Origin: Candidatus Eiseniibacteriota bacterium | Lineage (GTDB): Bacteria; Eisenbacteria; RBG-16-71-46; CAZAMP01 | Direction of reading: 5' to 3' | NCBI GenBank assembly: GCA_965224245.1 | Contig: OZ245046.1 | Coordinates: 6,208,001 to 6,272,000, forward strand | Length of the DNA stretch: 64,000 bases | In this document: piece by piece, positions 17,946 through 63,232 of the stretch | How the letters are laid out: each line of letters opens with the position of its first letter | Position numbering within the stretch: position 1 is the first letter of the stretch | Position numbers and translations under genes: made by a program | The notes under the pieces: generated by a model | Databases searched by the model: none | Seen by the model: the letters and a program-made list of their open reading frames with translations, nothing else | What the model was told of the DNA's origin: nothing

Positions 17946-18207
17946 CCCGTAGTGTCCGAGAATGCGACCGCGTTCCCAGATAGTAGCTCACGAACCCCGT
18001 GCCAGACTCGTCGCATGAGCCTGATCATCCATCTCCAGCTCCTGCTTCCGACGTTCTCGGCCTGGATCGGACACCGGCAGGCATCCGTCATCATGTACCT
18101 GATCGAGGAACCGCGTCCTCGAAGAGCAGCCGAAGCCCGGCGGGCAGTCGCGCCCGCTCCGCCGACGACCAGGGCGTGAGGTCGTTCGGCTTCTCGGACA
18201 CGACGGG
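17946..18207 (+). mobile_element. MITE-like internally deleted integrase-core IS relic with both terminal IRs
   Basis: CCCGTAGTGTCCGAGAA (17946) and TTCTCGGACACGACGGG (18191-18207) form a 17-bp IR with 1 mismatch; inside is the transposase N-terminus MSLIIHLQLLLPTFSAWIGHRQASVIMYLIEE. Confidence 0.85.
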
Positions 18208-18536
18208 CTTCAGACGACGAACCGTGGCTGCACTGTAACCTCTGCATATTCAATGACGTGTGGCTGGTGGGTGTGTCGTGTCTCCGGCCGACCGCCACCA
18301 AACTCGCCAGGCGTGGCCCCTTTTTGGCTCGGGCTACGCGTTGTGCGTAGTGGGCGTACGATCCCCTGACGCGAGCGAGGTTTCCCATGTCGCCTGTCTC
18401 CCTCGACGTTCTCAAAGGTGCAATCTCTCCCTGGTCATCGTCCAGGGGCCTGGATGTTCCAGCGCGGTCCAGGTACGGGCAGTCACCGACATACCTGCTT
18501 CATCGATACACGCCAACCCGAACTCTGGAGGACATC

Positions 18537-21500
18537 GTGCGTCGCCCGTCGATCGTGTCCGTTCCGCTCGTGCTCGTCGCTCTCATGCTCATCTCCTCGA
18601 CGACGGTCGGATCCCGACCGCTCGCTCGAGCGAGCGGCGACGTGCCCGCGGAGGCGATCTCGAACACCATCACCGCGCCCGGCTCCCCGAGAGCGCGAGT
18701 GTCAGGTGACCCCGACTCCTTGATCACCTGGTTCGGTGCAGTCGATGCCGGCGGGACGGCGACACCGGGCGGGAGGTGGACCTTCGATCACGGCGCTCCG
18801 GGTCTCGAGGGCTGGACCATCATCGATCCCTGGGGCGACAACGCGTTCCTCGCCGGGCGTCGCGTGACCGGGGCCGAGTGGGAGGCGCGTGGCGGCACGC
18901 CCGGCGGCGCGCCCACGTTCGGGACCACGGGGAGCCTCTGGTTCGGGTTCTACCCGAACGAGGCGGACAGCGCCTGCTTCGACGCCGGGGCCGGGTACGG
19001 GAACTACTGGGCGCAGGAGCTGAGGAGTCCCGTGTTCCAGCCCGTCAACCCCTTCATCAGCGTTCAGTTCAGTTTCTACAACGACACCGAGGACGGGTAC
19101 GACTTCACGCGGGTGCTGGTCCGGAACCTGACAGACGCCACCGAGCAGCAGCTGCTGTCGATCACGGGTTCGTTCGGCACCCCGTCGAGTCCGGTCGCGG
19201 GGGGGGTGGGGCTGCCGTGGTGGCGGGTGATGACTACCAGCTCGTCTTCGAGTTCCGATCCGATCCGGCGTATTCCGACGAGGACGGCCTCCACGCAACG
19301 GCCGCGGGCGGCTTTGCCGTCGACGACCTGACGATCGATGATCTGGCCACGGTCCTCACCTACGACTTCGAGACGGACGACGAGGGCTTCACCGCACACG
19401 CCCAGCCCACGGACGGAACGATCGCCGACATCACCAACGTGTGGGCGGCGGAGCCGGTGTGCTTCGACGTGGCGACCCCTCATGGCATCGGCTCCGCAGC
19501 GCTCGCGGGGTCCATCCCGCAAGGTCACGGCGAGTACTTCGTCTCGCCACCGGTCGACATCTCGTCGTTCGGCAGCAACCCGCACCTCTTGGGGGAGACC
19601 CGGTTCAGCGCTGATCTTCCCTGCCTGGACGGCGTCCGGTTCGCCGTGGGCTGGAGCTACTACCCGGAGAGCTGCAGCGGAGTTCTGCGCTGGTCACAGC
19701 TTCGGTTCCGCACCTACTTCTACACGAGCGCGCCGACGTGCGACGTGTTCCAGGAGATGGATCGTTTCCCGGGTGTCGACATGGTCCCGGCGGGGGCAGA
19801 CTCGGCGCGCATGGTGATCTACGTCACGCAGTCGTGTGACTTCGCTGCCGGCTGCCCCGGCGAGTGCACCGGCGTCACCAACGATACGCCCTACTTCGAC
19901 GACATCCGGATCGGAGTCGTGAGCGAGCGGGTGCGGCTCGTTCCGACGCTTCTCTATCCCACGATCCAGGCCGCGATCGACTCCGCCGCCGTGGGCGACA
20001 CCGTGTTGGTCGCGGAGGGAACGTACACAGGAGTCGGGAACAAGGACATCGACTTCGGCGGCAAGGATCTCGTGCTTCTCGCCCAGGGCACGGGCGCGGT
20101 CATCGACTGCGAGGGCTCGGGGCGCGGCTTCCGCATGGAGGGCGGCGAGACCGCGGCTGCCGTGATCGACCGGTTCACCATCCGTAACGGCGCGCCGGCG
20201 TCCGGTCGCGGCGGGGGGATCGCGATCCTCTCGTCATCGCCCACGATCAGGAACTGCGTGGTCGAGGATTGCGCCACGTCGAGCCCTGCCGACGGCGGTG
20301 GCATCTCGGTGTTCTCGCTGTGCTCGCCGGTGATCGAGTCGTGCGTCATTCAGAACAACAGCAGCACGGACCAGGCCGGTGGGATCTGGGCCTCGGATGG
20401 CGCGACGCCGACCATCATCGACTGCCAGATCATCAACAACACGGCGACGGTCGCGGGCGGCGGACTCGGGTTGCGGGACTCGGGCACGATCGCGACCGTG
20501 ACGCGTTGCACGATCACCGGCAACTCGACGCAGGGAAGGGGTGCCGGCGCCTACTTCTCCCAGAGCGCCGGGAGCTTCACCGACTGCGTGATCCAGGGGA
20601 ACACGGCGAGCGAACACGGTGGAGGCGTCTATGCCACGGGCTCGGCAACGTTCGTGACGATGTCCGGGTGCCTCCTGACCGGCAACCACGCCGCCGAACT
20701 GGGCGGGGGGTTCTACCAGACGAGCTCGCCCACGTGCTCGATCGTCGCCAGCACCCTCGCCGGGAACCACGCCGGCACGAACGGTGGCGGCATCCGCGCC
20801 TTCTCGGGAACGCTCACGGTGGATCGTTCGATCGTCTGGGGAAACTGTGCCTCCGGCGGCCCGGGCGACGAGATCTACACAGGCGCGTCGGCGATCGTCG
20901 ACTTTCTGTGCAGCGACGTCGACAGCACGGCGGTCGACAACCCGGGCACGGTGACGTACGACGCGAACACCGTCGCTCTCGACCCGGAGTTCTGCGGACC
21001 GGAGGATTGCCTCTCCGCGCCGACGACCGCGGGCGACTACGCGCTCACGCTCGGGTCGGTGTGCAACCCGCTCTACTCCCCGTGCGGGGAGCAGATCGGC
21101 GCCTTGGCGGGAACCTGCCTCGGGCCCTCGCCAGCTCTCACCGCCGTCGCAGACGTCCCGGACGACCAGGGACGGCAGGTACGCCTCACGTGGACGCGGA
21201 CGGTGCACGACGGTCCGGCCGGGCCCACGATCACCGAGTACGGGATCTGGCGACGGATCGACAGCTGGCTCGCGTTGGGCGGTCCGGAAACGAGATCCGC
21301 CGGCACCGAGCGACGCTCCGACGTCCTTCTACCCCCGGGGAGCTGGGACTTCGTGGGCACGGTTCCGGCGCGCGGCGACGACGAGTACCACACCGTCGCC
21401 CCCACCCTGTGCGACTCGACCGAGACCGAGCTCTGCACCTCGACCTTCTTCGTTTCGGCGATGACGGCTGACCCGCTCACGTTCTTCGACTCGATGCCCT

Positions 21501-22084
21501 TGACCGGGTACTCGGTGGACAACCTGCCGCCTGGCGTACCGACGGGACTCATGCTCGTCGGCACGGATCTAGCCTGGGACGCTGCCTCTGATTCCGATTT
21601 CGCGTACCACAGCGTCTACGGCTCGATGTCGGCGGAGTTCGATCCCGCGGCCACCTTGATCGGGTACACGATCGATCCGAGCTATGACGTGGCCGGCGCA
21701 TCGTACGGCTTTTATCACGTGACGACGACCGATCACGCGGGCAACGAGGGAGAGGCCGCGAGCGTGGAGGGCGCGTTGCTCTCATCACCCGAGGCGCCGG
21801 CTGCGACTACATACACGCTGTTCCCGCCGGGACCGAACCCGTTCCGCAGTGGCACGGCGTTGACGTTCGCGCTTCCCGTGGCGGGGGACGTGCGGCTCGT
21901 CATCTACGACGCGAGTGGACGTGTGGTGCGGACGCTGGCCGATGGGGCGTATGCGCCTGCGGTCCATCGAGTGGCCTGGGACGCGCGCGATGATGGTGGC
22001 CGGCCAGTGGGGCCGGGTGCCTACTTCGCGCGGCTCACGGCGGGGACGTATGAGGCCGAACGCCGTCTCACGGTGATTCGGTGA
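18537..22084 (+). pseudogene. Secreted right-handed beta-helix protein with DQG module and FlgD/T9SS-like CTD, split by a single frameshift near 19200
   Basis: GGAGGA RBS plus GTG and signal peptide in the frame of ORF 18387; coding continues in the frame of ORF 18776 after the G8 run at 19199-19206; YPTIQAAID..GDTVLVAEGTY and N-x-A..GGG repeats. Confidence 0.8.
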
Positions 22085-22635
22085 GTCCGAAGCGGTGGTT
22101 CGCGACGTCTTCACGGGGTACCCAGTCCGAACGCATCGCGAACTCAGCATCCAAAGGGCCGCGACGCGCCAGTCGACGTCAAGCGTAGAATGCACCGGTA
22201 CAACCGGTTGACCCCGTTCGGACTGGGGAGCCCGGGTTTGCCACGTCACGATGACCGAGCCTCAGCCGCTTCGGGGAACCGACGGCCCATGGGGGCACGA
22301 CGCGTCCGTGCGAACCGTCGCGCGGCCGGGGCCGCTGCGGCGCCGTAGCGGGAGCGTGCGGGGCCACGCCACGATCAGGGCGGGACGCACGCACATAGCA
22401 GAATCGCACTGACTTGGAGAACTCGTGGCCATGGACTCCGAACGACTGGTAGAATTGACCTTCAGTCCGTACGTCCGGTGACTCGCGAGCAATCATGTAC
22501 GCGCAACCGATCGCATGGGTCGTCGACAGCGCCATGCGATCTTGCGACGAGATGCCCGGGAGGCTCTTGCGACCGGGCGCAGCCTCGAGTCTCTCATCAG
22601 AACCGCGTTGCCAGGAGGCGCGGAAGGAGGACTGC

Positions 22636-23223: not shown

Positions 23224-23227
23224 GCGG

Positions 23228-23292
23228 CCGGTCACGATCCGTCGTGACCGGTAACTTCGTGACGCCAGGCATTCCTCTCGGATGCCTGGCGT
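23228..23292 (+). terminator. Two tandem perfect hairpins downstream of the 22636-23223 gene
   Basis: CCGGTCACGA-TCCG-TCGTGACCGG (10-bp stem) and ACGCCAGGCAT-N9-ATGCCTGGCGT (11-bp stem); no strong U tract. Confidence 0.5.
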
Positions 23293-23347
23293 TCTCGATT
23301 CTCCCCGATCTGGCATGTCGATGGCGTGCGGTCAATGAACTCGATAC

Positions 23348-23640
23348 CGCGCACTGACCGAAGACTCGACCGCCTTGCCAAGTAGTAGCTTACGAGCCCC
23401 GTGCTAGACTCGTCGATATGAGCGAGATCATCCATCTCCAGCTCCTGCTGGCGACGTTCTCGGCATGGATGGGGCGACGGCAGGCATCAGTCACTGCCTA
23501 CCTTGATCGAATGAAGCCGCATCGCCTCGGACTGTGACATCGCCAGTCACGAGCGCCTCGATCGGCTGCTGAGGTACTACCTTCAGGAGGCGGCGTGACG
23601 GGATGGTCCGCGGTCGGTCGAGTTTCTCGACCCTACCGGG
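23348..23640 (+). mobile_element. Internally deleted integrase-core IS relic (left end, N-terminal codons, C-terminal codons, right end)
   Basis: CGCGCACTGACCGAAGACTCGACCG...TGCTAGACTCGTCGATATGAGCGAGATCATCCATCTCCAG...HERLDRLLRYYLQEAA*...GGTCGGTCGAGTTTCTCGACCCTACCGGG. Confidence 0.85.
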
Positions 23641-26632: not shown

Positions 26633-26640
26633 CGTTCGCA

Positions 26641-27301
26641 CGCGCACTGTCCAAAAGCTCGACCGCGTTGCCAGATAATAGCTTACGATCGCCGTGCTAG
26701 ACTCGTCGCATGAGCGAGATCACCCATCTCCAGCTCCTGCTGGCCACGTTCTCGGCCTGGATGGGATGTCAGCAGGCATCGGTCAGCGTGTACCTGATCG
26801 AGGAAGACCGCGTCCTCAAGGAGCAGCGCGAAGCCGACGGCCGGAAGCTACGCTTCACCGATCAGCGTCGGAGACTGGCCGCCAAGGGCAAACCCCTGGG
26901 CCACAAGATTCTCCAGCAGACGCTACCTGATCCTCGATCGCGACGCGCTCTTCACGCAACGGCTCAAATCGACCCTCGAAGCCCCGGGAGTTCAGATCCT
27001 GCGGACGTCGTACCGGGCGCCGAACATGAATGCCAGTGCGGAGCGGTTCGTGCGATCGCTAGAGACGAAGTGCCTGGATCAGATGATCTTCCTCGGGCTG
27101 GACTCGCTGGAGCGGGCCATCGGCGTACGTCGCCCACCATCATGGGGAGCGAAGCCATCAGGGGCTCGGCAACACGGTGGTCAATGGCGTACAGCCACGA
27201 CCCGAGTGCACGATCCACGTAGACGAGCGGTGCGGCGAGCGGCTCGAGCGCTACGATCGGAGGGTCGCGTGAGGTCGGTCGAGCTTCTCGGATGGTACGG
27301 G
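26641..27301 (+). mobile_element. Largest integrase-core IS relic (both ends, partial transposase)
   Basis: MSEITHLQLLLATFSAW..YLIEEDRVLKEQ..LRFTDQRRRLAAKGK fused to YLILDRDALFT..RAPNMNASAERFVRSLETKCLDQMIFLG..SHQGLGN; ends GGTCGGTCGAGCTTCTCGGATGGTACGGG. Confidence 0.9.
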
Positions 27302-27395
27302 TAGAACGGGCTCCTCGTGACGAGCCTTGGAGGATGGGACACCGATGCCGCAACGTCAGCGGGGCGAACGCCCACGAGCCATCAACCCGGGCACC

Positions 27396-28400
27396 ATGCG
27401 CCGCGTCACCCGCATCGCTCTCAGGGCCGCCCTGGCGGTAACTCTCCTGGCCCTGGTCTTTCGGTTCATTCCACTCACGGGCGTGGCCGCTGCGCTCGGG
27501 AACACGGAGCCGGGCTACCTTCTCCTGGGCATCGGTCTCCAGTTCGTCATGCGCGTGGTGGCCACGGTTCGCATGCGCGTCATCACCGCCGACCAGGGAA
27601 TGAGCCTGGGTCACGTGGCGCTGTTCCGGATTCTGCTGGCAACCCAGTTCTACTCACAGCTCTTGCCGGGCTCGATCGTGGGTGGCGGCGCCACCTGGCT
27701 CAAGTGCGTGCAGTCGGGGGCCAGCACCGATGCCGCTCTGGCCGCCGTCATCCTCCATCGGGGCATCAGCACGATGGTGGCGATCGGCGTGGGCTCGGCT
27801 GCGTGGCTGCTCCGGCGCGGTGAGATGACGCCCCCGGCCATTGCCGTTTCGCTCGCGATCTTGATCGCCTTGTGCGCCCTGGCGGTCGTGCGGGTGCCGG
27901 TTCGCATGGAGTCCGTCTCGATCCGCACGGGGCGTGTTCGGCGATGGCTTCATCGGGTGTTACGCCGCCTTCTGCGTTTTCATCACATCCCCGTGCGCGG
28001 GAAGCTGGTCGTCATCTTCGATTCGTTCGTGTACGAGACGGTCGCCGCGATGGCGTTCTGGTCCTTCGCGGCGGCGCTGTCCATCGAGCTCCATCCGCTC
28101 GATGCGGTGTGGATCCGTGTCGCGCTGCAGCTGGTGCTGATGGCCCCCGTGACGATCGCCGGTCTCGGCGTCCGCGAGGCCAGCCTGGTCGGCCTGGGCA
28201 GCCTGGTGGGTGTCGGCGCCTCCGACGGCGTGGCGTGGTCGCTCCTGGTGCTCGCCGGGACACAGGTCGTGGCGATCGCCGGTGGTCTGATCGAGGCCCA
28301 TGCGACGGCCGGCATCGCGTCGCGGCGCCTGGTCACGCGCAGGGCTCCCGACGCCGGCCCCGATCTCGCCTCCGGCCGAGAGGGTGGCCATACTCGATGA
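27396..28400 (+). CDS. Lysylphosphatidylglycerol synthase TM-domain/flippase-like membrane protein
   Basis: Multiple TM segments; LLPGSIVGG and PVTIAGLGVREASL motifs; start uncertain (27345 or 27396). Confidence 0.8.
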   Translation: MRRVTRIALRAALAVTLLALVFRFIPLTGVAAALGNTEPGYLLLGIGLQFVMRVVATVRMRVITADQGMSLGHVALFRILLATQFYSQLLPGSIVGGGATWLKCVQSGASTDAALAAVILHRGISTMVAIGVGSAAWLLRRGEMTPPAIAVSLAILIALCALAVVRVPVRMESVSIRTGRVRRWLHRVLRRLLRFHHIPVRGKLVVIFDSFVYETVAAMAFWSFAAALSIELHPLDAVWIRVALQLVLMAPVTIAGLGVREASLVGLGSLVGVGASDGVAWSLLVLAGTQVVAIAGGLIEAHATAGIASRRLVTRRAPDAGPDLASGREGGHTR

Positions 28401-29479
28401 GCGTCCCCGCCGTGTCGCTCTGCGTCATCAATCACAATGGCGCCGCGCATCTACGCCGGGCCCTCACGGCGCTGGACGGTCTGGGATGGTCGTTCGGGGA
28501 GGTCCTCGTCGTGGACAACGCATCCGAGGACGACAGCCTGGACGCGGTCGCCGCTTGCTGTCCTCACGCTCGACTCGTCGCCTTGCCCCGGAATCTGGGT
28601 CCGGGAGGGGCGCGCAATGCGGGCTTCGCGTCGGCCCGGAACGACCTCGTTCTGTTTCAGGACAACGACGTCGCCCTGTGTCCCGGAGCCGTGAAGCGGC
28701 TGGTCGACCGCATGCGAGAGAACGAGCGGGTACTTGCCGTGGCTCCGCGGGTCCTTCATGCATCCGATCCGGAACGGGTGCAGTTCGACAGCGCGGATTG
28801 CCACTTCTCCGGCTTCATGATGACCCGCAACGCCGAGGCGTCCGTCGGATCCCTGACGAGTCGCTCCCCGGATCACCAGGCCACCCGGACGACCTCGCTC
28901 GTGACGGCCTGTTTCCTTCTCGATGGAAGTCGCTGGTCCGGTGGCCCGCTGTTCGATGACTCGCTGGGCTTCAATCTGGAGGACCACGACTTCGGTGTCC
29001 GGGCCAGCGTCTCCGGGCACGAGCTGTGGGTCGAGCCCGAGGCGACCGTGCTGCACGGCGGGGGCACGCCGGGCCTGTCGCTTCGGGACGGTCAACGACC
29101 GAGTGAACCGCGTCTGTTCTACCTGATCCGGAATCGCTGGATCGTGATCGCGAAGTGCTTCTCCGTGCGGACCCTGGTACTACTGGCGCCGGCTCTCGCG
29201 CTGGTCGAATGTATGCTCCTGGGATGGCTGGTCATCCATGGACGGGGTGCGATCTGGACTCGGGCGGTCCGCTCGTTCTCGGGCCGGCGTCGGACGGTGT
29301 GGGCACAGCGGCGCGACGTTCAGCGCGGACGGCGGCGGGGCGATGCGTGCATCCTTCGCGACGGACCGCTTCCGCTGACCTCGCACGTGCGCCGGGGTTC
29401 ACTCGCGGCCCGGGTCCTGCCGATCGCGGAGCGGCTCCTGCGAGGCTACTGGCGCCTCGTTCGGCGGTGGATATGGTGA
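28397..29479 (+). CDS. Glycosyltransferase family 2
   Basis: VINHNG, VVDNASEDDS, NLGPGGARNAG, FQDND, EDHDFG. Confidence 0.9.
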   Translation: MSVPAVSLCVINHNGAAHLRRALTALDGLGWSFGEVLVVDNASEDDSLDAVAACCPHARLVALPRNLGPGGARNAGFASARNDLVLFQDNDVALCPGAVKRLVDRMRENERVLAVAPRVLHASDPERVQFDSADCHFSGFMMTRNAEASVGSLTSRSPDHQATRTTSLVTACFLLDGSRWSGGPLFDDSLGFNLEDHDFGVRASVSGHELWVEPEATVLHGGGTPGLSLRDGQRPSEPRLFYLIRNRWIVIAKCFSVRTLVLLAPALALVECMLLGWLVIHGRGAIWTRAVRSFSGRRRTVWAQRRDVQRGRRRGDACILRDGPLPLTSHVRRGSLAARVLPIAERLLRGYWRLVRRWIW

Positions 29480-29486
29480 GGTGTCG

Positions 29487-30671
29487 ATGCGACTGCTGAC
29501 GATCGCCGCGTGTCCCTGCCCGTGGCCGCGAGGGACTCCGATTCGCATCCACCGCATGGCCGAGGCGCTGGTCGAACGCGGGCACGAGGTGCACGTCGCC
29601 ACCTATCCGCTCGGGGACGAACGCGTGCACGTTCCTTACCGGGTGCATCGTGTGAGCTCACGCGGCAGCCGGATGGACCCGCGGCCGGGCCCGTCGCTGA
29701 AGAAGCTCCTGTGGCTCGATCCCATGCTGCTCCGCAAGGTGATCCAGCTCCTGCGCACGCGTCGGTTCGACGTGATCCACGCGCACCACTACGAGGGCTT
29801 GATCGTGGCATTGCTTGCACGCCGCGTCGCCGGCGGTACTCCCATCCTCTTCGATTCGCATACGCTGCTGGGCACGGAGCTGTCGCATTACCCGCTGCCG
29901 TTCCCCGACGTCCTGACGGCGAGGCTCGGGAGCGCCCTCGACCGTGCCCTGCCGGCGCGCGCCGACCACGTGGTCGCGGTCACCGCACGCATGCGTGACT
30001 GGTTCGAGAGCGCCGCGTCGATCCCGGCGCATCGCCTCTCCTTGATCCCGAACGGGGTCGAGTACGACTACTTCCAGGCGGGCGCCCACGCTCGCTCCCC
30101 GACGCCATCCCGTGACGACACTCGAACGGTGCTGTTCGCGGGCAACCTGGCCCAGTATCAGGGGATCCCTCTTCTCCTCGAAGCCTTCGCCAGGCTGCAC
30201 GAGCTGAAGCCGCTCACGCGGCTGCAGCTCGTCACCGAGTCGTCACTCGATCCGTGGCGACGGCGGATCGCGGAGCTCGGCATCGCCCACGCCGTGGAAG
30301 CGGTGTCGTCCGACTACGCCGAGCTTCCGGGCCGCCTGCGGTCCGCGGACGTCCTCGTGAACCCCCGCACCAACTGCGACGGGATTCCCCAGAAGCTGTT
30401 GAACTACATGGCCTCGGGGAGACCCATCGTCTCGTTCGAGGGCTCGGCGGCCGTGCTCGAACACGAACGTACCGGTCTGGTGGTGCCGGACGGGGACGTC
30501 GGGGCCTTCGCACTGGCCATGCAGCAGATCCTGGACGCGCCCGAGCGAGGAAGCGCACTCGGAAACGCAGCGCGCGATCACGTCGCCGTCTCACACAGCT
30601 GGCAGCATGCCGCGGAACAGATGGAGGGCGCTTGCCGGAGCTGCGTTGGAACCGGGGAGGGGCGCTCATGA
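29487..30671 (+). CDS. Glycosyltransferase family 4
   Basis: FDVIHAH, IPNGV, LFAGNL..YQG, PQKLLNYMASGRPIV, TGLVVP. Confidence 0.9.
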   Translation: MRLLTIAACPCPWPRGTPIRIHRMAEALVERGHEVHVATYPLGDERVHVPYRVHRVSSRGSRMDPRPGPSLKKLLWLDPMLLRKVIQLLRTRRFDVIHAHHYEGLIVALLARRVAGGTPILFDSHTLLGTELSHYPLPFPDVLTARLGSALDRALPARADHVVAVTARMRDWFESAASIPAHRLSLIPNGVEYDYFQAGAHARSPTPSRDDTRTVLFAGNLAQYQGIPLLLEAFARLHELKPLTRLQLVTESSLDPWRRRIAELGIAHAVEAVSSDYAELPGRLRSADVLVNPRTNCDGIPQKLLNYMASGRPIVSFEGSAAVLEHERTGLVVPDGDVGAFALAMQQILDAPERGSALGNAARDHVAVSHSWQHAAEQMEGACRSCVGTGEGRS

Positions 30672-32203
30672 CGACGTCGCCGATCCTGCTCCTCGGGCTC
30701 GACGCGGCCGATGCCGACCTCATCACGACGTTGATCGCCGCCGGGGAGCTTCCCAACCTGGCGCGGCTGCGTGAGACGGGTCGATACGGGCGCCTCGCCA
30801 CCCCGGCCGATCACTACGCCGGCGCCGTGTGGCCGACGTTCTACACGGGGATGCACGTCCCCTGGCATGGCGCGTTCCACAACAAGCTGTGGCGACCGGA
30901 CTCCATGCGCGTCGAGGTCGCGGCGGAGCACTGGATCCGAAGTCGGCCGTTCTGGGAGGGGATCGATCCACACCTGCGCGTCTGCATCGTAGACGCTCCG
31001 ATGGTGCTCGGTGCTCCGAAGCGACTCAACGGAGTCTACCTCGGCGGCTGGGGCACTCACGACGTGATGCATCAGGGCTCCTGGCCGCGGGGCCTCTGGG
31101 GAGATCTCGTCCGCCGGTACGGTGCGCCGGCGATGCCGGCCGAGCACTTCGGGGCCCAGTCGCGGGCGTCGCTGATCACGCTGGCCTCGGCGCTGGAGGC
31201 CTCGACACGGCAGTTTCAGGACGTCGTCCTGGACGTGCTCCAGCGTGAGCGGTGGGACCTTGCCTGTGTCGTGTTTGGTGCTATGCATCGCGCGGGACAC
31301 TACCTGTGGGATGCTTCCCAGGTTGAAGACGCGCCGGACGGTGCGGCGGCCGATCGGGTCCGGTCGGGTCTCGGCGCGGTCTACGCAGCGGTCGATCGGG
31401 CGCTCGGGGCGATTCTCGATCGGACCGGCGAGGAGACACTCGTTCTCTGCTTTGCCGTGCATGGCATGGCGGCGAACCGGGGCTGGTCTGATCTGCTCCC
31501 CGATCTCCTGGCCGCGCTGGAGCACGCCGCGCTCGGCACGCGCCCCAGGCGTGGCTTGCTCCATGCGGTGAAGCGACGGGTCCCGCATCACTGGGTCCGG
31601 CCACTCCTGACGCGTCTCCCGGCCGCTGCCGCCGGACGCCTCGTGCCGCTGTGGTCCAGGGGCATGTTCGACTGGTCACGAACCCGGTTCTTTCCGATGC
31701 CGATGGATCAGGCGGGCTACCTGCGCGTGAACCTGCGCGGCAGGGAGGCCGCCGGAGTCGTGGATCGGGGCGCCGACTATGACGCCGTGTGCACGCAGCT
31801 GGAACGGTGGATGCTCAGCCTGCGTGACGAGGCCACTGGACGCGCACTGACCGATCGCGTCGAACGTGCCTACGCACGAGCCGACGAGGACGCGACGTAT
31901 CGTCATCTGCTGCCGGACCTGGTGGTCCCCTGGCATGGGCCCGCCGCGGCGGAGACGCGATCGGTGACCTCGACGGTGATCCCGGGGTTTCGGTATCGGG
32001 TCCCGCGGCGGCTGCCGTCCGGTCGCTCGGGCAACCACACCGATCGGGGGTGGCTCATCGCGCGGGGAGCCGGTGTGACGCCGGGAGCCTTCGGACGCGA
32101 GCACCACGTCGTGGATCTGGCCCCCACGGTGCTCGCGCACCTCGGCCTCGCGCCCGACCCCAGCGTTCAGGGCAGGCCCATCGATCTGCAGGGTGACCCA
32201 TGA
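30668..32203 (+). CDS. Alkaline phosphatase superfamily (type I phosphodiesterase/nucleotide pyrophosphatase-like) protein
   Basis: LLGLDAAD, LPNLARL, WPTFYTG..HG, HRAGHYLW, SGNH..G, VVDLAPTVL. Confidence 0.8.
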   Translation: MTTSPILLLGLDAADADLITTLIAAGELPNLARLRETGRYGRLATPADHYAGAVWPTFYTGMHVPWHGAFHNKLWRPDSMRVEVAAEHWIRSRPFWEGIDPHLRVCIVDAPMVLGAPKRLNGVYLGGWGTHDVMHQGSWPRGLWGDLVRRYGAPAMPAEHFGAQSRASLITLASALEASTRQFQDVVLDVLQRERWDLACVVFGAMHRAGHYLWDASQVEDAPDGAAADRVRSGLGAVYAAVDRALGAILDRTGEETLVLCFAVHGMAANRGWSDLLPDLLAALEHAALGTRPRRGLLHAVKRRVPHHWVRPLLTRLPAAAAGRLVPLWSRGMFDWSRTRFFPMPMDQAGYLRVNLRGREAAGVVDRGADYDAVCTQLERWMLSLRDEATGRALTDRVERAYARADEDATYRHLLPDLVVPWHGPAAAETRSVTSTVIPGFRYRVPRRLPSGRSGNHTDRGWLIARGAGVTPGAFGREHHVVDLAPTVLAHLGLAPDPSVQGRPIDLQGDP

Positions 32204-33783
32204 TCCTGACTCCGCCGGAACTGGCGTCCGACGTCTACGACGTGTGTGTGATCGGGGCCGGCCCCGCCGGGATCACGCTCGCGCTGGAGCTCGAGCCAAC
32301 CGGCATGGGCATCTGCTTGCTCGAGGCGGGGGGAGAAACCTACGAGCCGCGGGCGCAACGGCTGCTGGAGGGGACGATGGAGGGTGACCGCTATCCTCCG
32401 CTGCGCGACACCCGCCTCTCCGCGCTGGGGGGCACCAGCCATGTCTGGGCGGGCTGGTGCCGGCCGCTGGATCCAATCGACTTCGACCCGCGACCGGGAC
32501 GGGACGGATGCGGCTGGCCTCTCGGTGCCTCCGATCTCGAGCCGTACTACCGTCGGGCGCACGAGTATCTCGGCCTCGGCGCGTTCGACTACGACGCTCC
32601 CGGCGACGCGCTTCGAGACGATCTGCTGCCGATCCGCCCGGCCGATGTCGCGCACGCGGTGTTCCGGGTGGTGCCGCGGCAGCTCGGCGCCCGCTACCGC
32701 GGCCGGCTCGAGGTCGCGCAGAACGTGCACCTGGTGCTGCACTCACCGGTGATGCGGTTGCGCATGAACCCCGGAGGTGATTGCGATGGTGCCTGCGTAC
32801 GCGGGCCCGACGGTCGCGATCTCCGGATACGCGCACGGCGCTACGTGCTGGCGGCGGGCGGCATCGAGAACGCACGGCTGTTGCTGCTCTCAGCCGAGTC
32901 GCCCGAGTCGGCACCGGGCAACTCCGCCGATGTTCTCGGTCGGTACTTCACGGATCATCCGTTCGCGAACGTGGGCACGATGCATCTGAACGCGCCCCGT
33001 GCGCTCACCGCGTACTTTCCGCGCCGGCCGGCCGGGGACACCGCGGGACCGGGGGTGGCCCCGCAGGTACGGACCACGCTCAGTCTGCCGCGCCACGTGC
33101 TCGAGCAGGAGGGGTCGCTGAACGCGGCGCTGTTCTTTCACCCCCGATATGAAGCGCACGAGGTGTTCGACCACCCCGAGGTCGCGGCGCTGCTGGAGGT
33201 CTGGAACAAGCTACGGGGCAAGGCCGTGCCGGGCGGGCTGCGTCCATACCTACAGAGAGCGGTCAGGGCTCCGCACCGACTCGTCGTCGCCGGGGCCCGA
33301 AAGCTACTGATCGGTGCCGGACCGGGTCGGACGTGGCGCTGCCGCGCCATGTTCGAGACGGAGTCGCGCGCCGAGAACCGGGTGACGCTGGGCGTGCGAC
33401 GCGATGCATTGGATCGTCCCCTCGCCCATGTCGACTGGCATCTGAGTGAACTCGATCTGCTGAACATGCGATCGATCATGGGCCGCTTCGACCGCGCCCT
33501 CCGTTCGACCGGCATCGGATGGATCGAGTTCGCGTGCCAGGACACGGCGGATGGGTGGCGCAGCCTGGCGGAGGGCGGGAAGCACCACATGGGCACGACA
33601 CGCATGCACGTCTCGCCCCGGTCCGGCGTCGTCGACGCGGACTGCCGGGTGCACGGTGTCTCGAACCTGTACGTGGCCGGCAGCTCGGTCTTTCCCAGTG
33701 GCGGCTATGCGAATCCGACGCTGACGATCGTCGCTCTGGCGATCCGTCTGGGGGACCACCTGAGGAACGGGACGACGACGTGA
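32200..33783 (+). CDS. GMC family oxidoreductase
   Basis: DVCVIGAGPAG, LGGTSHVWAG, LAAGGIENARLLL, HHMGTTRM, NPTLTIVALAIRL. Confidence 0.9.
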   Translation: MILTPPELASDVYDVCVIGAGPAGITLALELEPTGMGICLLEAGGETYEPRAQRLLEGTMEGDRYPPLRDTRLSALGGTSHVWAGWCRPLDPIDFDPRPGRDGCGWPLGASDLEPYYRRAHEYLGLGAFDYDAPGDALRDDLLPIRPADVAHAVFRVVPRQLGARYRGRLEVAQNVHLVLHSPVMRLRMNPGGDCDGACVRGPDGRDLRIRARRYVLAAGGIENARLLLLSAESPESAPGNSADVLGRYFTDHPFANVGTMHLNAPRALTAYFPRRPAGDTAGPGVAPQVRTTLSLPRHVLEQEGSLNAALFFHPRYEAHEVFDHPEVAALLEVWNKLRGKAVPGGLRPYLQRAVRAPHRLVVAGARKLLIGAGPGRTWRCRAMFETESRAENRVTLGVRRDALDRPLAHVDWHLSELDLLNMRSIMGRFDRALRSTGIGWIEFACQDTADGWRSLAEGGKHHMGTTRMHVSPRSGVVDADCRVHGVSNLYVAGSSVFPSGGYANPTLTIVALAIRLGDHLRNGTTT

Positions 33784-34043
33784 ACCCGTGCCGTATCATC
33801 CCGGCTTCGCCCACGATCTCCTTCACGTGACGCTCCGGTCTCAGTGCTGGATCGTCGAAAGACTCTCCGGATTGGAGCAGCGAGTCGATCGATCGTTCAA
33901 CCGAGGCGAGCGGTGAGTCGACTCGCATTCGGGATGGGCAGTCGAGAAGATTCACTCCCGTGCTTCGGCCCCGAGATCATAGAATGGTGCGTGCGACGCC
34001 GTCGCGCCGATCCGTCATCCGCAATCTCAGCCTGTAACAACGT

Positions 34044-36548: not shown

Positions 36549-36553
36549 GGGAA

Positions 36554-36883
36554 CGACCCCTCGAAGCCTCGGGAGTTCAGATCCCACGGACGTCGTACCA
36601 GGCGCCGAACATGAGTGCCGGCGCCGAGTGGCTCGTGCGATCGATCAAGACGCAGTGCCTGGATCAGATGATCCTCCTCGGTCCGGCCTCAGTGGAGCGG
36701 GCGATCTCGGAGTACACGCCCACTCTCACGGGGAGCGAAGCCAGGGCATCGGCGACACGCTGGTCAACGGCACAGATCCACGATCCGACGGCGCGATCCA
36801 TGTAGAGCAGCGCCTCGGCGGGCTGCTCGAGTTCTACGATTGGCGGGCCGCGTGAGCTCGTTCGAGTATTCGGACACAACGGG
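36554..36883 (+). mobile_element. 3' half relic of the integrase-core IS with right end
   Basis: GVQIPRTSYQAPNMSAGAEWLVRSIKTQCLDQMILLG..QRLGGLLEFYDWRAA*; right IR TATTCGGACACAACGGG. Confidence 0.88.
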
Positions 36884-36887
36884 AACA

Positions 36888-37531: not shown

Positions 37532-37630
37532 TGTCGTTGAGCGGCTAGGTGGGCTGCTGAGGCACTACCATCGGGAGACGGCGTGATCGGTGCGCTTCTG
37601 GGTCCTGTCGAGTTGCTTGACCGACATCGG
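37532..37630 (+). mobile_element. Right-end relic of the integrase-core IS
   Basis: ERLGGLLRHYHRETA* followed by a degenerate right IR GTCGAGTTGCTTGACCGACATCGG. Confidence 0.75.
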
Positions 37631-50367: not shown

Positions 50368-50523
50368 CCCGTGGCGTCCGAGAACAGGTGCGCCGCGAAG
50401 AGGCGGCGAGGTCCAGCGCGTGCTGTCAGAAATGCGATCGCATCGCCAGATTGAAGCTTACGAGCCTCGTGCCGGACTCCTCGCGTGAGCGAAGTCGTCC
50501 TTTCGAGTTTCTTGCACTGCGCG
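50368..50523 (+). mobile_element. Minimal IS-end relics: extra left IR at 50368 and a 107-bp left-end/right-end fusion at 50417-50523
   Basis: CCCGTGGCGTCCGAGAA; CGCGTGCTGTCAGAAATGCGATCG..AGCTTACGAGCCTCGTGCCGGACTCCTCGCGTGAGCGA..TCGAGTTTCTTGCACTGCGCG. Confidence 0.7.
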
Positions 50524-51020: not shown

Positions 51021-51023
51021 GCG

Positions 51024-51752: not shown

Positions 51753-51979
51753 CAAACCTCTCCGGTTGGTGTGGGGGGCCAAGTTTCCCCTGTTCGATCC
51801 ACCGACGCAAGTCCGCCACGCCCATCGTTACCGAATGAGTGCTCGCGTCCGGGGCTCCTGCAAGGGCCGTGAGGAGTGATCGAGGCCATCGGGAGAACGG
51901 CACCAATCGCTCGACCGCGCCGACCTACGGGAACGCAGCGTCAACCAGGGCAACGTACATGGACTCTCGGAAGGCACCG

Positions 51980-52250: not shown

Positions 52251-52251
52251 C

Positions 52252-52306
52252 GAGTACGACCATCGGCGGGCGGGGTGACGTCGCTCTGGTCTTCGGACAC
52301 GACGGG
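52252..52306 (+). mobile_element. Right-end relic of the integrase-core IS
   Basis: GAGTACGACCATCGGCGGGCGGGGTGA (EYDHRRAG*) plus TCTTCGGACACGACGGG. Confidence 0.75.
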
Positions 52307-54118: not shown

Positions 54119-54979
54119 ATGAGTTGCTGGCATGGACGGACGGGTCCGCGCGTTTCCGCGAGCCGTGAACTCCATCGTGTGTTCATCATCCTTGGTGCCA
54201 CGATGGCAGCGGTGGCGCTCGACGGGTGCAGCGACGACGTGCCTCCCACGAGCACCGAGGCGCCCGCGACTGACCCACCCGCGGTCAACACACCAGACGA
54301 CGTCGTCAGCGCGTTCCGCCAGGCCTGGAACGGCCGGGATGCGTCGGCCGTGGCATCGGTCCTCGGCGATGGCTTCATCTTTCACCTTTCGCCCACCGAC
54401 ATCGACACCGCCGACGTTCCGCGAAGCTGGGCGCGCAGCACTCACCTCCGCGCCGTGGGCAACATCTTCGCGGGGGAGACGGGTGTACGTCCGGATGGCA
54501 CTCCCCAGCCGTCGGTCGACACGCTGTCCTTCTTCGGACTCACGCTGGTTCCCGATCGTCGCGAGTGGACTCCCGTCGAGGGACCGGGTCTGGATGGGAT
54601 GCTCCGGCGCGACTACCTGAGCGTGATGACCGCAAGCTACACGGACCTGGACTTCGACTTCGTCGAAGGGCGCCAGTCGTTCTACGTGCGCGAGGAGGCG
54701 GATACGGACGCGGAGGGCAACCCGATTCGACGGTACCGACTCCAGGTCTGGAAGGACCTGGGCAGCGACGACAAACGTCTCGGGCGGCGACACCGAGTGC
54801 TCACGTGGGGGTACTTTCTCGCCCTGTATCGCGAGGTTCACGGCGCAGGGTCCGGAGAGTCGACCAGCACGGGACTACTCCCGTCCTGTCCGAGAAGCGG
54901 AACGAGCCCAAACTGCATGACTTACGAGGCTCGCGCCCGGCCGCCGGATGAACGAGTTCATCCATCTCCTGGCCCGTAG
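54119..54979 (+). CDS. Hypothetical lipoprotein (NTF2-like N-terminal part); 3' end runs into an IS left end
   Basis: Lipobox-like LDGC; TPDDVVSAFRQAW; LTWGYFLALYR near the probable natural end. Confidence 0.6.
   Translation: MSCWHGRTGPRVSASRELHRVFIILGATMAAVALDGCSDDVPPTSTEAPATDPPAVNTPDDVVSAFRQAWNGRDASAVASVLGDGFIFHLSPTDIDTADVPRSWARSTHLRAVGNIFAGETGVRPDGTPQPSVDTLSFFGLTLVPDRREWTPVEGPGLDGMLRRDYLSVMTASYTDLDFDFVEGRQSFYVREEADTDAEGNPIRRYRLQVWKDLGSDDKRLGRRHRVLTWGYFLALYREVHGAGSGESTSTGLLPSCPRSGTSPNCMTYEARARPPDERVHPSPGP
54880..54972 (+). mobile_element. Left-end relic of the integrase-core IS
   Basis: CCCGTCCTGTCCGAGAAGCGGAACG..CTTACGAG..ATGAACGAGTTCATCCATCTCCTGG. Confidence 0.75.
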
Positions 54980-57747: not shown

Positions 57748-57829
57748 CTCCATGGGCTGCTGAGGTACCATTGCCGGACGTCGACGCGATGGCCCGTTCG
57801 GGCTCGAAGGAGTCTGCTGACCACACGCG
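57748..57829 (+). mobile_element. Right-end relic of the integrase-core IS
   Basis: GGGCTGCTGAGGTACCATTGCCGG (GLLRYHCR) plus degenerate right IR GAGTCTGCTGACCACACGCG. Confidence 0.6.
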
Positions 57830-60288: not shown

Positions 60289-60461
60289 TGCTCGACTCGT
60301 CGCATGAGCGAGATCATCCATCTTCCGCTCTCGCTCGCGGCGTTCTCGGCCCGAACTGGACGTCGCGAGGCGCGGTCATCGTGTACCTGATCGTGACGGC
60401 CGCAAGATGCTCCAGCCGATCGTGACGGGTCGGATGATACGACGAGGTTCTCGGCATGGGG
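60289..60461 (+). mobile_element. Internally deleted integrase-core IS relic
   Basis: TGCTCGACTCGTCGCATGAGCGAGATCATCCATCTT..GCGTTCTCGGC..TCATCGTGTACCTGATCG..CGAGGTTCTCGGCATGGGG. Confidence 0.8.
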
Positions 60462-62540: not shown

Positions 62541-63175
62541 TCACCTTGACGCAGGGGCTGACCGCGGTGCTGGTCTCCTGTGCCGGCTTCACTGCCGGCG
62601 ACATCTCGCCGATCGATGCCTTGTTCTTGCGCCTGTCCCGGACTCCGGCGATGCGCATGACCAAGGGCTACACGTTCCTCAACGTCAAGGCGGTCACGGT
62701 CGAGGTCTTCCTACCCGACGACCATCCGCAGTTCGAGGTCGTTCGCCGGGGGTTTGAGACCGACGAGGATCGCAAGAGGGTCGTGTCCACGGTCATGGCG
62801 CTCGAGAACCTGCTGATCGGGGTCACGTTTCTGCGGGACGTGTCGCTCAACAAGTACGTGTCGATCACCGAGGACAACATCGACGAGGCCGTGAAGGCCG
62901 GTATCGTCTCCAGGGATGAATACAGGTCCGTGTGGCCAGCGTTTCTCGACGAGATGCGCAAGAGAACGGACGGGTCTTTCCGCAAAGGTGGTCAGATCTC
63001 GTACCGTGTCCATGCGGATCACGTACGAGTCTTGTCGGTCGATGCCGAGGGTGAGCCTGAGGTGGACTTCCTCATCACCGGTGAGGATGCGGTTCGATTG
63101 CTCGAGGGCGTGTTTTTCGCGCGGGGATCGGACTTCCGTGATGGCCTGATCGAGTCGGCCCTTCGACGACGCTGA
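62537..63175 (+). CDS. Hypothetical protein, possibly chalcone-isomerase-like fold
   Basis: Start overlaps the upstream stop region; FLRDVS and FRKGGQISY loosely resemble CHI-like proteins. Confidence 0.5.
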   Translation: MITLTQGLTAVLVSCAGFTAGDISPIDALFLRLSRTPAMRMTKGYTFLNVKAVTVEVFLPDDHPQFEVVRRGFETDEDRKRVVSTVMALENLLIGVTFLRDVSLNKYVSITEDNIDEAVKAGIVSRDEYRSVWPAFLDEMRKRTDGSFRKGGQISYRVHADHVRVLSVDAEGEPEVDFLITGEDAVRLLEGVFFARGSDFRDGLIESALRRR

Positions 63176-63179
63176 TGTC

Positions 63180-63232
63180 GTAGGAATGGACGTCGGCAGG
63201 CATCGCTCATCGTGTACCTGATCGATGAGAGG
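63180..63232 (+). mobile_element. Internal fragment of the IS transposase N-terminus
   Basis: GGACGTCGGCAGGCATCGCTCATCGTGTACCTGATCGATGAG matches the copies at about 18070, 26770 and 60360. Confidence 0.7.

What the first reader, a model, noticed from the sequence alone, without database searches (positions are those of the whole stretch)
17946..63232. Cassette-like array: cargo genes separated by about 12 co-oriented relics of one integrase-core IS
Seen: pieces of the same element, all on the + strand, lie at 17946-18207, 23348-23640, 26641-27301, 36554-36883, 37532-37630, 50368-50523, 51885-51931 (weak), 52252-52306, 54880-54972, 57748-57829, 60289-60461 and 63180-63232. Fainter candidates lie near 3358-3490, 33875-33935, 42475-42610 and 59010. 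Almost all sit at gene junctions. Each copy is deleted differently, yet the termini (IRs, MSEIIHLQLLL start, ERLGGLLRYY..AA* end) are what mostly survive. Between them are 1-5 unrelated genes on either strand. Established: independent IS insertion gives mixed orientation, whereas IS26-type translocatable units and integrons build directly oriented arrays. Inference: this is an integron-like gene-accumulation platform in which a DDE integrase-core transposase, supplied in trans, adds cargo at copies of its own ends. No intact copy of that transposase and no IntI gene are in the window.
Basis: partly seen in the sequence, partly recalled or inferred. Interest (0 to 1): 0.88.

Follow-up and report, generated by a model that had tools for sequence, protein, structure and literature searches.

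The report
Co-oriented graveyard of one insertion sequence
The window lies in a large low-GC chromosome zone littered with about thirty decayed copies of one jumping gene that nearly all point the same way, which most likely reflects this element's directional insertion habit rather than an integron-like gene-collecting device.

Summary
Eleven of the 12 listed relics are real; 51885-51931 and all 4 faint candidates are not detected. All 11 lie on the + strand at gene junctions, each with a different internal deletion.

The pattern extends beyond the window. In a low-GC zone of about 480 kb at both ends of contig C1, 30 of 32 distinct relic loci (E<=1e-3) are on the + strand. Five control stretches of 700 kb give only noise, with both strands about equal. 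The genome holds no intact copy.

The element is an uncurated IS481/IS3-like insertion sequence with a single-ORF 355-aa rve transposase, widespread in uncultivated phyla.

Favoured explanation: independent insertions by a lineage with an orientation bias relative to strand asymmetry, all on one replichore. Intact close relatives sit on the G-rich strand in 14 of 18 independent loci, and the relics on G000's small contigs agree with local skew in 6 of 6.

The integron-like or IS26-like accretion reading is not shown, but some facts keep it alive. Relic junctions are GC break-points, like ends are stacked, no target duplication of 3 bp or more was found, and neighbouring copies are co-oriented in other phyla.

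Earlier notes of this scan hold nothing similar.

The parts
17946..18207 (+). Relic with both inverted repeats (262 bp): left end plus the first codons of the transposase, joined directly to the right end
   Evidence: Profile positions 3-263, E 1.5e-58. IR core matches exactly at 17946 and with 1 mismatch at 18191-18207.
23348..23640 (+). Relic with both ends (293 bp). The right end is the long-spacer variant.
   Evidence: Profile positions 1-199 and 1073-1185. Right-end profile E 2.9e-18.
26641..27301 (+). Largest relic (661 bp). It has both ends, the N-terminal 70 codons, and the frameshifted C-terminal third of the transposase. The catalytic core is deleted.
   Evidence: Profile positions 1-315 and 782-1187. 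Translations. rve_3 match 23 bits, below cut-off. 75% identical to P0003 over 70 aa.
36554..36883 (+). 3' third of the element with its right end. It is the closest relative of the 3' part of the 26641 relic (79% over about 310 nt). Together the two bracket a 9.25-kb block of higher GC.
   Evidence: Profile positions 841-1187, E 8e-75. Pairwise table. GC 0.69 against 0.64-0.65.
37532..37630 (+). Solo right end (long-spacer variant)
   Evidence: Right-end profile E 1.2e-17. Profile positions 1089-1181.
50368..50523 (+). Two stacked left ends (50368 and 50416), followed by a right end
   Evidence: Left profile E 2.3e-17 at 50419-50509. IR core with 2 mismatches at 50368. Sequence read.
52252..52306 (+). 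Solo right end, weak. It abuts a truncated - strand gene fragment that holds only a FlgD_ig tail.
   Evidence: Right profile E 0.0043 in the 701-kb zone. IR core with 3 mismatches at 52290-52306. Fragment 51980-52336.
54880..54972 (+). Solo left end, weak
   Evidence: Left profile E 0.00028 and element profile E 0.001 in the zone. IR core with 2 mismatches at 54880.
57748..57829 (+). Solo right end, weak
   Evidence: Right profile E 0.0041 in the zone. The element profile gives only E 0.22.
60289..60461 (+). Relic lacking its left tip: start codon region plus a degenerate right end
   Evidence: Profile positions 56-256, E 1.3e-28. Left profile E 2.4e-17.
63180..63232 (+). Internal scrap (codons about 20-35), weak
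   Evidence: Element profile E 2.2e-5 in the zone. BLASTN 88% over 41 nt.
51885..51931 (+). Claimed weak relic, not confirmed
   Evidence: No profile hit at E<=1.
27302..36553 (+). Largest block between relics: LPG_synthase_TM, GT2, GT4, phosphodiesterase, GMC oxidoreductase and a BNR protein with a Por_Secre_tail. GC is 0.69, against 0.64-0.65 on either side.
   Evidence: Pfam. GC. The GMC oxidoreductase has a relative at E<=1e-60 in only 1 of 205 other genomes of the phylum (39% identity).

Best explanation
This is a graveyard of one insertion-sequence lineage, not a dedicated gene-capture device.

The element is about 1.17 kb. It encodes a single 355-aa rve-type DDE transposase and has inverted repeats of about 25-30 bp.

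Inferred history. The element invaded a low-GC, IS-rich accessory zone of the chromosome in at least two waves, one old and one younger. It inserted between genes, lost its last intact copy, and decayed by independent internal deletions.

Why the copies point one way. The lineage inserts, or survives, preferentially with its transposase gene on the G-rich strand, which is the leading, co-directional strand. The whole zone lies on one replichore, so almost all copies share an orientation.

Why the termini survive. The relics sit in tight gene junctions, so a deletion that runs outward would damage a neighbouring gene.

Shown:
- the identity of the element;
- the clustering, the strand bias and the different deletions;
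- the two age classes;
- the correlation of orientation with GC skew in relatives.

Inferred:
- that replication direction is the cue, rather than the direction of local transcription;
- that the bias acts at insertion;
- that each relic is an independent insertion.
For: Identity of the element. Full-length relatives are 355 aa. They carry rve_3, HTH_32 and HTH_21. An intact copy with the same inverted repeats was read in L001.

Clustering and strand bias. 30 of 32 distinct loci at E<=1e-3 are +. Controls show balanced noise. The only relics outside the zone on C1 are at 4109225 and 940944.

One replichore. Cumulative GC skew turns at about 1.65 and 4.95 Mb, and the zone has positive skew throughout.

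The cue holds in relatives. Among intact copies at least 75% identical to P0003, the flanks are G-rich on the transposase strand in 18 of 22 loci. That is 14 of 18 after merging loci that share flanks. Most flanking genes are co-directional in 17 of 22.

The cue holds on arbitrarily oriented contigs. On G000's small contigs, relic strand and local skew agree in 6 of 6. In G021, three - strand relic loci lie in negative skew and the + strand intact copy in positive skew.

The cue persists. Both right-end variants and both age classes share the orientation and are interspersed along the zone. This fits a standing cue acting on independent insertions.

Other IS families in the genome have mixed orientations, for example five identical 421-aa copies on +,-,+,-,-.

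Precedent. Family-specific IS orientation bias relative to replication is documented (Gomez et al. 2014, PMC3971601; abstract and passages read).
Against: Exceptions to the skew rule:
- The one strong relic on the other replichore (4109225) is also +.
- The two G012 C4 loci are on the - strand in positive skew.

The wider family (53-68% identity) shows no bias: skew is positive in 26 of 55 loci and the gene-strand majority agrees in 29 of 55. Yet its neighbouring copies are still co-oriented, about 29 to 5. That points to a local mechanism.

GC skew over 10-20 kb follows local gene direction in this genome, so replication and transcription cues are confounded.

A bias of about 78% predicts roughly 25 of 32 copies on +, somewhat fewer than the 30 seen.

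The reading does not explain the GC jumps at relic junctions, the stacked like ends, or the missing target duplications.

In Gomez et al., IS481 and IS3 lean weakly towards the lagging strand, which is the opposite direction.
Confidence: 0.52

Rival explanations
1. IS26/IS30-like accretion. This rve-type IS prefers to integrate at or beside resident copies of its own ends, in a fixed relative orientation and without a target duplication. IS dimers, or circles made of one IS plus neighbouring DNA, bring in or reshuffle cargo. The result is arrays of directly repeated copies with foreign segments between them.
For: Neighbouring copies within 10 kb of intact copies in other genomes are co-oriented. 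By my hand collation (45 loci examined), about 29 are co-oriented and 5 inverted, or 13 loci against 3. In the close subfamily the count is 5 to 2.

Further arrays:
- G023 has four copies, all on the - strand, within 18 kb on C2 and four within 83 kb on C4. G022 has two copies 4.5 kb apart.
- G012 C3 has 8+ against 2- over 80 kb.
- L031 has three intact tandem-oriented copies with small unrelated ORFs in spacers of 0.7-0.9 kb.

Stacked like ends lie 20-260 nt apart in G000, L019, L022, L031, L053, L102 and G021.

No target duplication of 3 bp or more was found in 26 plus 32 intact copies.

Relic junctions have about twice the GC jump of other gene junctions: 0.0287 against 0.0152, Mann-Whitney p 0.005.

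The two relics that bracket the 9.25-kb high-GC block are each other's closest relatives.

Cargo genes are patchy in the phylum.

Known pathways of this kind exist. IS30 shows IR-targeting with strict orientation, IS dimers and Tn circles (PMC9333248, abstract and introduction read). IS26 forms direct-repeat arrays and translocatable units (PMC7986276, passages read).
Against: No head-to-tail right-end/left-end junction is preserved anywhere in the zone.

Stacked ends are left-left or right-right. IS30-type IR-targeting would instead produce a right end abutting a left end.

The two end variants are interspersed rather than blockwise.

No cargo block recurs elsewhere bounded by relics.

Truncated gene fragments beside relics point to deletions, and deletions also create GC jumps.

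The target-duplication test rests partly on short-read metagenome contigs, which can be chimeric across repeats. A 2-bp CG duplication cannot be told apart from an extension of the inverted repeat.

G024 shows no co-orientation (25 of 53 adjacent pairs), and G025 only a weak one (45 of 72).
Confidence: 0.27
2. Survivor bias through neighbouring genes. Insertions upstream of genes persist only when the element's right end, reading outward, keeps the downstream gene expressed. Relics would then end up co-directional with the mostly + strand genes.
For: Eight of 11 relics are followed by a + strand gene. For four of them the called start lies within 32 nt of the right end (23647, 27327, 55004, 57848).

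101 of 152 called genes in the zone are on +.

The flanking-gene majority is co-directional in 17 of 22 loci of the close subfamily.
Against: With 66% of genes on +, this predicts about one third of relics on the - strand, yet 30 of 32 are +.

Four or five relics sit in divergent intergenic regions, where either orientation would serve one neighbour.

At least one of the close starts is doubtful. Relatives of the 55004 gene align only from residue 73.

No outward promoter was tested.
Confidence: 0.1
3. A working integron-like platform, in which relic ends act as recombination sites for a recombinase supplied from elsewhere in the genome.
For: The repeats are co-oriented and sit at gene junctions.

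A multi-copy short tyrosine recombinase exists in the genome, with one copy at the edge of the low-GC zone at C1:6104935.
Against: No intact transposase of this family is in the genome.

The relics have diverged to 43-85% identity, and many lack one end.

The tyrosine recombinase module is not in the window and has no shown link to the relic ends.

Short-read contigs of one sample bridge the relics unchanged.
Confidence: 0.03

Closest known systems
IS481 and IS3 families of rve-type DDE insertion sequences
   Same: It has a single integrase-core (rve_3) transposase with N-terminal helix-turn-helix domains. It is about 1.2 kb with terminal inverted repeats. The best NCBIfam models are IS481 (90.7 bits) and IS3 (86.6 bits).
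   Different: Both scores are far below the curated cut-offs of 224 and 160. There is no frameshifted two-ORF layout as in IS3. No target duplication of 3 bp or more was found. RefSeq plasmid records name the relatives only 'integrase core domain-containing protein'.
Family-specific IS orientation bias relative to replication (Gomez et al. 2014, Genome Biol Evol, PMC3971601)
   Same: One orientation is in excess along a replichore. The bias is specific to the lineage, and other IS families in the same genome are mixed.
   Different: The bias here is very strong: 30 of 32. It is directed to the G-rich strand, whereas that survey reports a weak lagging-strand tendency for IS3 and IS481. The copies are ancient relics confined to one low-GC zone.
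IS26 arrays, pseudo-compound transposons and translocatable units (IS6 family; review PMC7986276)
   Same: Directly repeated copies have unrelated genes between them. Many copies lack target duplications. New copies lie at or near resident copies.
   Different: The transposase is rve-type, not IS6-family. No circles or cointegrates were seen. The cargo is ordinary accessory genes, not resistance genes. The copies are old and dead.
IS30 and IS911 targeting of their own inverted repeats, and IS dimers (Olasz et al. 2022, PMC9333248)
   Same: They are copy-out-paste-in DDE elements that insert next to their own ends with strict orientation. Their dimers or Tn circles give directly repeated copies flanking other DNA. 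Stacked ends in this family show repeated insertion at resident ends.
   Different: The stacks are left-left and right-right, not the right-left junction that IR-targeting makes. The mechanism was not tested for this family.
Integrons (IntI, attI, attC cassettes)
   Same: Short co-oriented repeats separate small groups of unrelated genes.
   Different: There is no IntI in the window. The repeats are transposon ends and gene scraps, not attC sites. The genes between them lie on both strands, with up to six genes and 12.7 kb per block.

Membership tests
IS481 family (NCBIfam NF033577) | Transposase scores above the curated family cut-off | tested here: not met
   P0003 scores 90.7 bits against a cut-off of 224.
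IS481 family | Single unframeshifted rve-type transposase ORF between terminal inverted repeats | tested here: met
   Relatives are 355-aa ORFs. An intact copy with inverted repeats was read in L001. 27 full copies of 1157-1214 bp were listed in metagenome loci.
IS481 family | Short target-site duplication flanking each copy (feature recalled, not taken from a call) | tested here: inconclusive
   No excess of flank matches of 2-8 bp at any offset in 26 copies or in 32 copies. Caveats: short-read contigs can be chimeric, and CG tips are ambiguous.
IS3 family (NCBIfam NF033516) | Score above the cut-off, and a two-ORF frameshift layout | tested here: not met
   86.6 bits against a cut-off of 160. 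The ORF is single.
Integron | IntI-type tyrosine recombinase next to the array | tested here: not met
   The genome has 22 Phage_integrase matches and none lies in C1:6208001-6272000. The nearest is at 6104935.
Integron | attC recombination sites bounding single promoterless cassettes | tested here: not met
   The repeats are IS termini and transposase gene scraps. The blocks hold 1 to 6 genes on both strands.
IS26-type array (IS6 family) | IS6-family transposase | tested here: not met
   The Pfam domains are rve_3, HTH_32 and HTH_21.
IS26-type array (works-like question) | Direct orientation of copies with cargo between them | tested here: met
   30 of 32 loci are +. Co-oriented neighbours occur in other genomes.
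IS26-type array (works-like question) | Circular IS-plus-cargo units and insertion beside a resident copy | not testable with these tools
   Only Logan contigs of one sample were available, and no supported joints appeared. Contigs cannot show rare circles.
MITE (non-autonomous amplified derivative) | Many copies sharing one internal deletion | tested here: not met
   Every two-ended relic covers a different part of the profile.
Replication-linked IS orientation bias | Orientation follows strand asymmetry and flips on the other replichore | tested here: inconclusive
   It follows skew in 14 of 18 independent loci, in 6 of 6 small contigs and in all 4 G021 loci examined (the intact + copy, and 3 - relic loci). 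The single relic on the other replichore (4109225) does not flip, and the G012 C4 loci disagree in 2 of 2.

The most novel reading that the evidence does not exclude
This uncurated rve-type IS family, spread across Eisenbacteria-like lineages, Latescibacterota, Planctomycetota, Rokubacteria and Acidobacteriota, transposes mainly by an end-targeted pathway that is orientation-specific and leaves no target duplication. That pathway strings directly repeated copies together with captured DNA. It would be the IS26 way of building gene arrays, evolved independently in an integrase-core transposase. The low-GC zone of about 480 kb in this chromosome would then be the fossil of such accretion.
Probability: 0.2. 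Interest if true: 0.72.

Novelty: new member of a known kind. Interest (0 to 1): 0.42.

Why it matters
If the favoured reading is right, this is an unusually clean natural record of how strongly one insertion-sequence lineage can be oriented by chromosome strand asymmetry. It is preserved in dead copies over hundreds of kilobases, in a phylum known only from metagenomes.

It is also a caution. Co-oriented repeats at gene junctions can mimic a cassette array.

If the minority reading is right, an integrase-core IS family would share the array-building behaviour known so far mainly from IS26. Environmental bacteria would then have a second, unrecognised route for piling up accessory genes.

Either way, the family deserves curation. 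It is abundant, with 413 and 397 confirmed loci in two collections. Annotation pipelines do not name it. No target duplication was found for it.

Tried and rejected
- Faint candidates. 3358-3490, 33875-33935, 42475-42610, about 59010 and 51885-51931 gave no profile hit at E<=1.
- IR-core scan with 4 mismatches. It gave 411 hits, mostly noise, and was useful only at 3 or fewer mismatches.
- Target duplications by eye on the window's two-ended relics and on L001. Nothing convincing.
- Target duplications by count. No signal above shuffled flank pairs. The one excess, 18 of 32 at two bases inside the aligned repeat, is the self-complementary CG tip.
- Reads. Four runs of one sample and one study hold the stretch, all kept as contigs. 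Laid on 17500-37400, contigs bridge the relics at 17946, 23348 and 36554 without differences. They break at 26727-26784, where another copy matches. All joints have sides of 24 nt or less, except one contig join with a 255-nt side that runs from 22088 back to 17500 with 10,693 letters between. No joint lies at a relic end. This says nothing about rare circles.
- Synteny. The NmrA-like gene has relatives in G010 (73%) and G012 (57%), but their neighbours differ. The GMC oxidoreductase is almost unique. The nearest genome is in another genus, so conservation of gene order across relics could not be judged.
- Local skew around each G000 relic. It adds nothing beyond the background of the zone.
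- Duplicated cargo. Only the PD40 gene has a close paralogue, and it is not bounded by relics.
- Naming through plasmid records. They give only 'integrase core domain-containing protein'.
- Earlier notes of this scan. Nothing similar by place, sequence or words.
- Technical failures.
- Paper supplements were not open. Per-family orientation tables of Gomez et al. may bear on the comparison.

Full report
WHAT IS THERE

The window is G000:C1:6208001-6272000, on a 6.45-Mb contig of 69% GC.

The best-preserved copy, at 26641-27301, has three recognisable parts:
- a left inverted repeat and an ATG followed by 70 intact codons;
- a jump to the frameshifted last third of an integrase-core gene (rve_3, 23 bits, below cut-off);
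- a right inverted repeat.

A search with the 70 codons found 91 proteins. The full-length ones are 355 aa and up to 75% identical. One of them, P0003, carries rve_3, HTH_32 and HTH_21.

P0003 scores best against the IS481 (90.7 bits) and IS3 (86.6 bits) models of NCBIfam. Both scores are far below the curated cut-offs. RefSeq plasmid records call its relatives only 'integrase core domain-containing protein'.

An intact element in a genome of the same class (L001, G012) is about 1.17 kb and has the same inverted repeats. The element is therefore an uncurated IS481/IS3-like insertion sequence.

CHECK OF THE OBSERVATION

I built nucleotide profiles of the left end, the right end and the whole element. 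They confirm 7 of the 12 listed relics at E<=1e-3 against the whole genome. Four more are confirmed when only the surrounding 701 kb is searched.

The piece at 51885-51931 and all four faint candidates are not detected. All 11 confirmed relics are on the + strand. All lie between called genes, and each covers a different part of the profile.

The genome has no intact copy. The longest remains are 583-622 bp with internal deletions, plus a 3' portion of about 620 bp on C10. None of the 22 tyrosine-recombinase matches of the genome lies in the window.

THE PATTERN IS LARGER THAN THE WINDOW

On C1 the relics run from 6,137,785 to the end of the contig, and from its start to 162,836. Weaker hits reach about 258 kb. 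That is about 480 kb if the contig ends adjoin, which is inferred; the ends do not overlap.

Counts of distinct loci in this zone:

| E-value limit | Loci | + | - |
|---|---|---|---|
| 1e-3 | 32 | 30 | 2 |
| 0.01 | 39 | 37 | 2 |

One of the two - strand loci, at 6202908, belongs to another IS. It is only 35% identical in protein and entered the profile by iteration.

Five control stretches of 700 kb elsewhere on C1 give 4-12 hits each at E<=1, 24+/19- in all. Almost all of those have E>0.1. Outside the zone, C1 holds one strong relic (4109225, +) and one weak one (940944, +). Both lie in smaller low-GC islands.

The zone coincides with a low-GC stretch (0.65-0.68 against about 0.69-0.70) from about 6.10 Mb to 0.30 Mb. 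It also holds intact copies of other IS families in mixed orientation.

The left ends fall into two age classes:
- A younger group is 72-85% identical among itself: 6146-6235 kb, the 4109-kb copy and C3.
- Much older copies are 43-71% identical to everything else: 6258 kb onward to 108 kb.

There are also two variants of the right end. They are interspersed along the zone and share the same orientation.

CARGO

The genes between relics are varied:
- large secreted proteins with FlgD_ig or Por_Secre_tail C-termini;
- peptidases;
- a TIR-pentapeptide protein;
- an intact IS256-type transposase;
- a glycosyltransferase operon;
- a Ser/Thr kinase with an ECF sigma factor;
- an NmrA-like protein and a KAS III-like enzyme.

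Three neighbours of relics are gene fragments, so deletions happened next to relics. Two are FlgD_ig tails alone (36888-37310 and 51980-52336). The third is a beta-lactamase-like gene lacking its first 155 profile positions (25799-26632).

The cargo is patchy in the phylum:
- The NmrA-like gene is 73% identical in another family but was not found in the only genome of the same family.
- The GMC oxidoreductase has a relative at E<=1e-60 in 1 of 205 other genomes.

Relic junctions are compositional break-points. The mean GC jump over 2.5 kb on either side is 0.0287. At 126 other gene junctions of the zone it is 0.0152 (Mann-Whitney p 0.005).

The clearest case is the 9.25-kb block 27302-36553. 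Its GC is 0.69, with 0.64-0.65 on either side. It is bracketed by two relics that are each other's closest relatives.

WHY ONE ORIENTATION? THE STRAND CUE

The zone lies inside one replichore. Cumulative GC skew turns at about 1.65 and 4.95 Mb, and skew is positive across the zone.

In the wider family (53-68% identity to P0003), orientation of intact copies is unrelated to flank skew (26 of 55) or to the gene-strand majority (29 of 55).

In the close subfamily (75-90% identity) the picture differs:
- Flanks are G-rich on the transposase strand in 18 of 22 loci. That is 14 of 18 after merging loci with shared flanks.
- On G000's small contigs, whose orientation is arbitrary, relic strand and local skew agree in 6 of 6.
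- In G021, three - strand relic loci lie in negative skew.

There are exceptions. The two G012 C4 loci disagree, and the 4109225 relic lies on the other replichore without flipping.

Family-specific orientation bias of insertion sequences relative to replication is documented (PMC3971601). In that survey, however, IS3 and IS481 lean weakly the other way.

Skew over 10-20 kb in this genome follows gene direction. The cue could therefore be transcription rather than replication. But only 66% of genes in the zone are on +, which is too few to give 30 of 32.

WHY ONE ORIENTATION? A LOCAL MECHANISM

Several facts are not explained by a strand cue.

First, neighbouring copies within 10 kb of intact copies are co-oriented in other genomes. 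This includes distant relatives that show no skew correlation.
- About 29 are co-oriented and 5 inverted. This is my hand collation, after dropping four hits of 50 nt or less that cover only the inverted repeat, and one flank hit.
- The count is 5 to 2 in the close subfamily.
- G012 C3 has 8+ against 2- over 80 kb.
- G023 has two groups of four copies, each group all on one strand.
- L031 has three intact tandem-oriented copies with small unrelated ORFs between them.
- Against this, G024 shows none (25 of 53 adjacent pairs) and G025 little (45 of 72, with one run of 15).

Second, like ends are stacked 20-260 nt apart in G000 and in at least seven other places. Where the sequence is informative, they are in the same orientation.

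Third, I found no target duplication of 3 bp or more in 26 plus 32 intact copies. Two caveats apply: short-read contigs can be chimeric across repeats, and CG tips are ambiguous.

These traits resemble known pathways. IS30 and IS911 insert next to their own ends with strict orientation, and their dimers or Tn circles give directly repeated copies around other DNA (PMC9333248). IS26 builds direct-repeat arrays through cointegrates and translocatable units (PMC7986276).

Against this reading:
- The stacks are left-left or right-right, not right-left.
- No head-to-tail junction survives.
- The end variants are interspersed.
- No cargo block recurs elsewhere with relic borders.
- Deletions next to relics can by themselves create GC jumps.

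VERDICT

The integron-like reading is not shown.

I favour independent insertions by an orientation-biased lineage into a permissive zone on one replichore, followed by long decay (about 0.5). An IS26/IS30-like accretion pathway is the main rival (about 0.27).

Survival of the termini needs no special function. Inside tight gene junctions, only deletions that stay within the element are harmless; this is an inference.

Reads could not test for circles, because only contigs of one sample were available. The nearest genome is in another genus, so conservation of gene order across relics could not be judged.

Noticed in passing
G000:C1:6103916-6105482, and contigs C3 (6924-8498), C10, C11, C18, C22, C23 (two copies): A two-gene module occurs in 8 copies that are 76-92% identical in DNA. 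It encodes a 217-aa protein with no Pfam match followed by a 196-aa tyrosine recombinase that has the catalytic domain only. One copy sits at the left edge of the low-GC zone. On C3, C11, C18 and C23 the module shares its strand with the IS relics on those contigs; C10 carries a relic on each strand.
   Followed up: partly
window 13145-14392 (-): An intact IS256/Mutator-family transposase (Transposase_mut, E 5e-116) lies inside a block of - strand genes.
   Followed up: no
window 6867-7964 (-); also L182 (C3) 10139-12114 (-): A pentapeptide-repeat protein is fused to a TIR_2 domain. On C3 a pentapeptide protein lies next to an Mrr_cat restriction-endonuclease-like protein. These may be defence genes in the accessory zone.
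   Followed up: no
window 36888-37310 (-), 51980-52336 (-), 25799-26632 (+): Three gene fragments lie beside relics. Two are FlgD_ig C-terminal tails without the body of the protein. The third is a beta-lactamase-fold gene that matches only profile positions 156-325.
   Followed up: partly
window 38170-39400 and C1:136246-137459: The PD40/FlgD_ig gene has an 86% identical paralogue in inverted orientation, in the part of the zone at the start of contig C1 (about 380 kb away if the contig ends adjoin).
   Followed up: no
window 55004-56173 (+): Relatives of the NmrA-like protein align only from residue 73, so the called start is probably about 216 nt too far upstream. The gene is 73% identical in a genome of another family, but was not found in the genome of the same family.
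   Followed up: partly
L031 4523-10041: In a Planctomycetota MAG, three intact copies of a related IS (91-96% identical) lie in tandem orientation. Spacers of 0.7-0.9 kb between them each hold a small ORF of unknown function. The third copy interrupts an IS3-type OrfA-like gene.
   Followed up: partly
G025:C1:168-802 kb: In an 8.1-Mb chromosome with more than 150 matches to this transposase family, fifteen listed copies in a row share one orientation over 630 kb. Elsewhere in that chromosome the orientation is mixed.
   Followed up: partly
G000 contigs C2-C27 and C1 6.10 Mb to 0.30 Mb: All but one of the 26 small contigs (485 kb in all) have the lower GC of the zone (0.57-0.66; C20 is 0.69), and many carry IS copies. 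They probably belong to the same repeat-rich region, which the assembly could not close.
   Followed up: no
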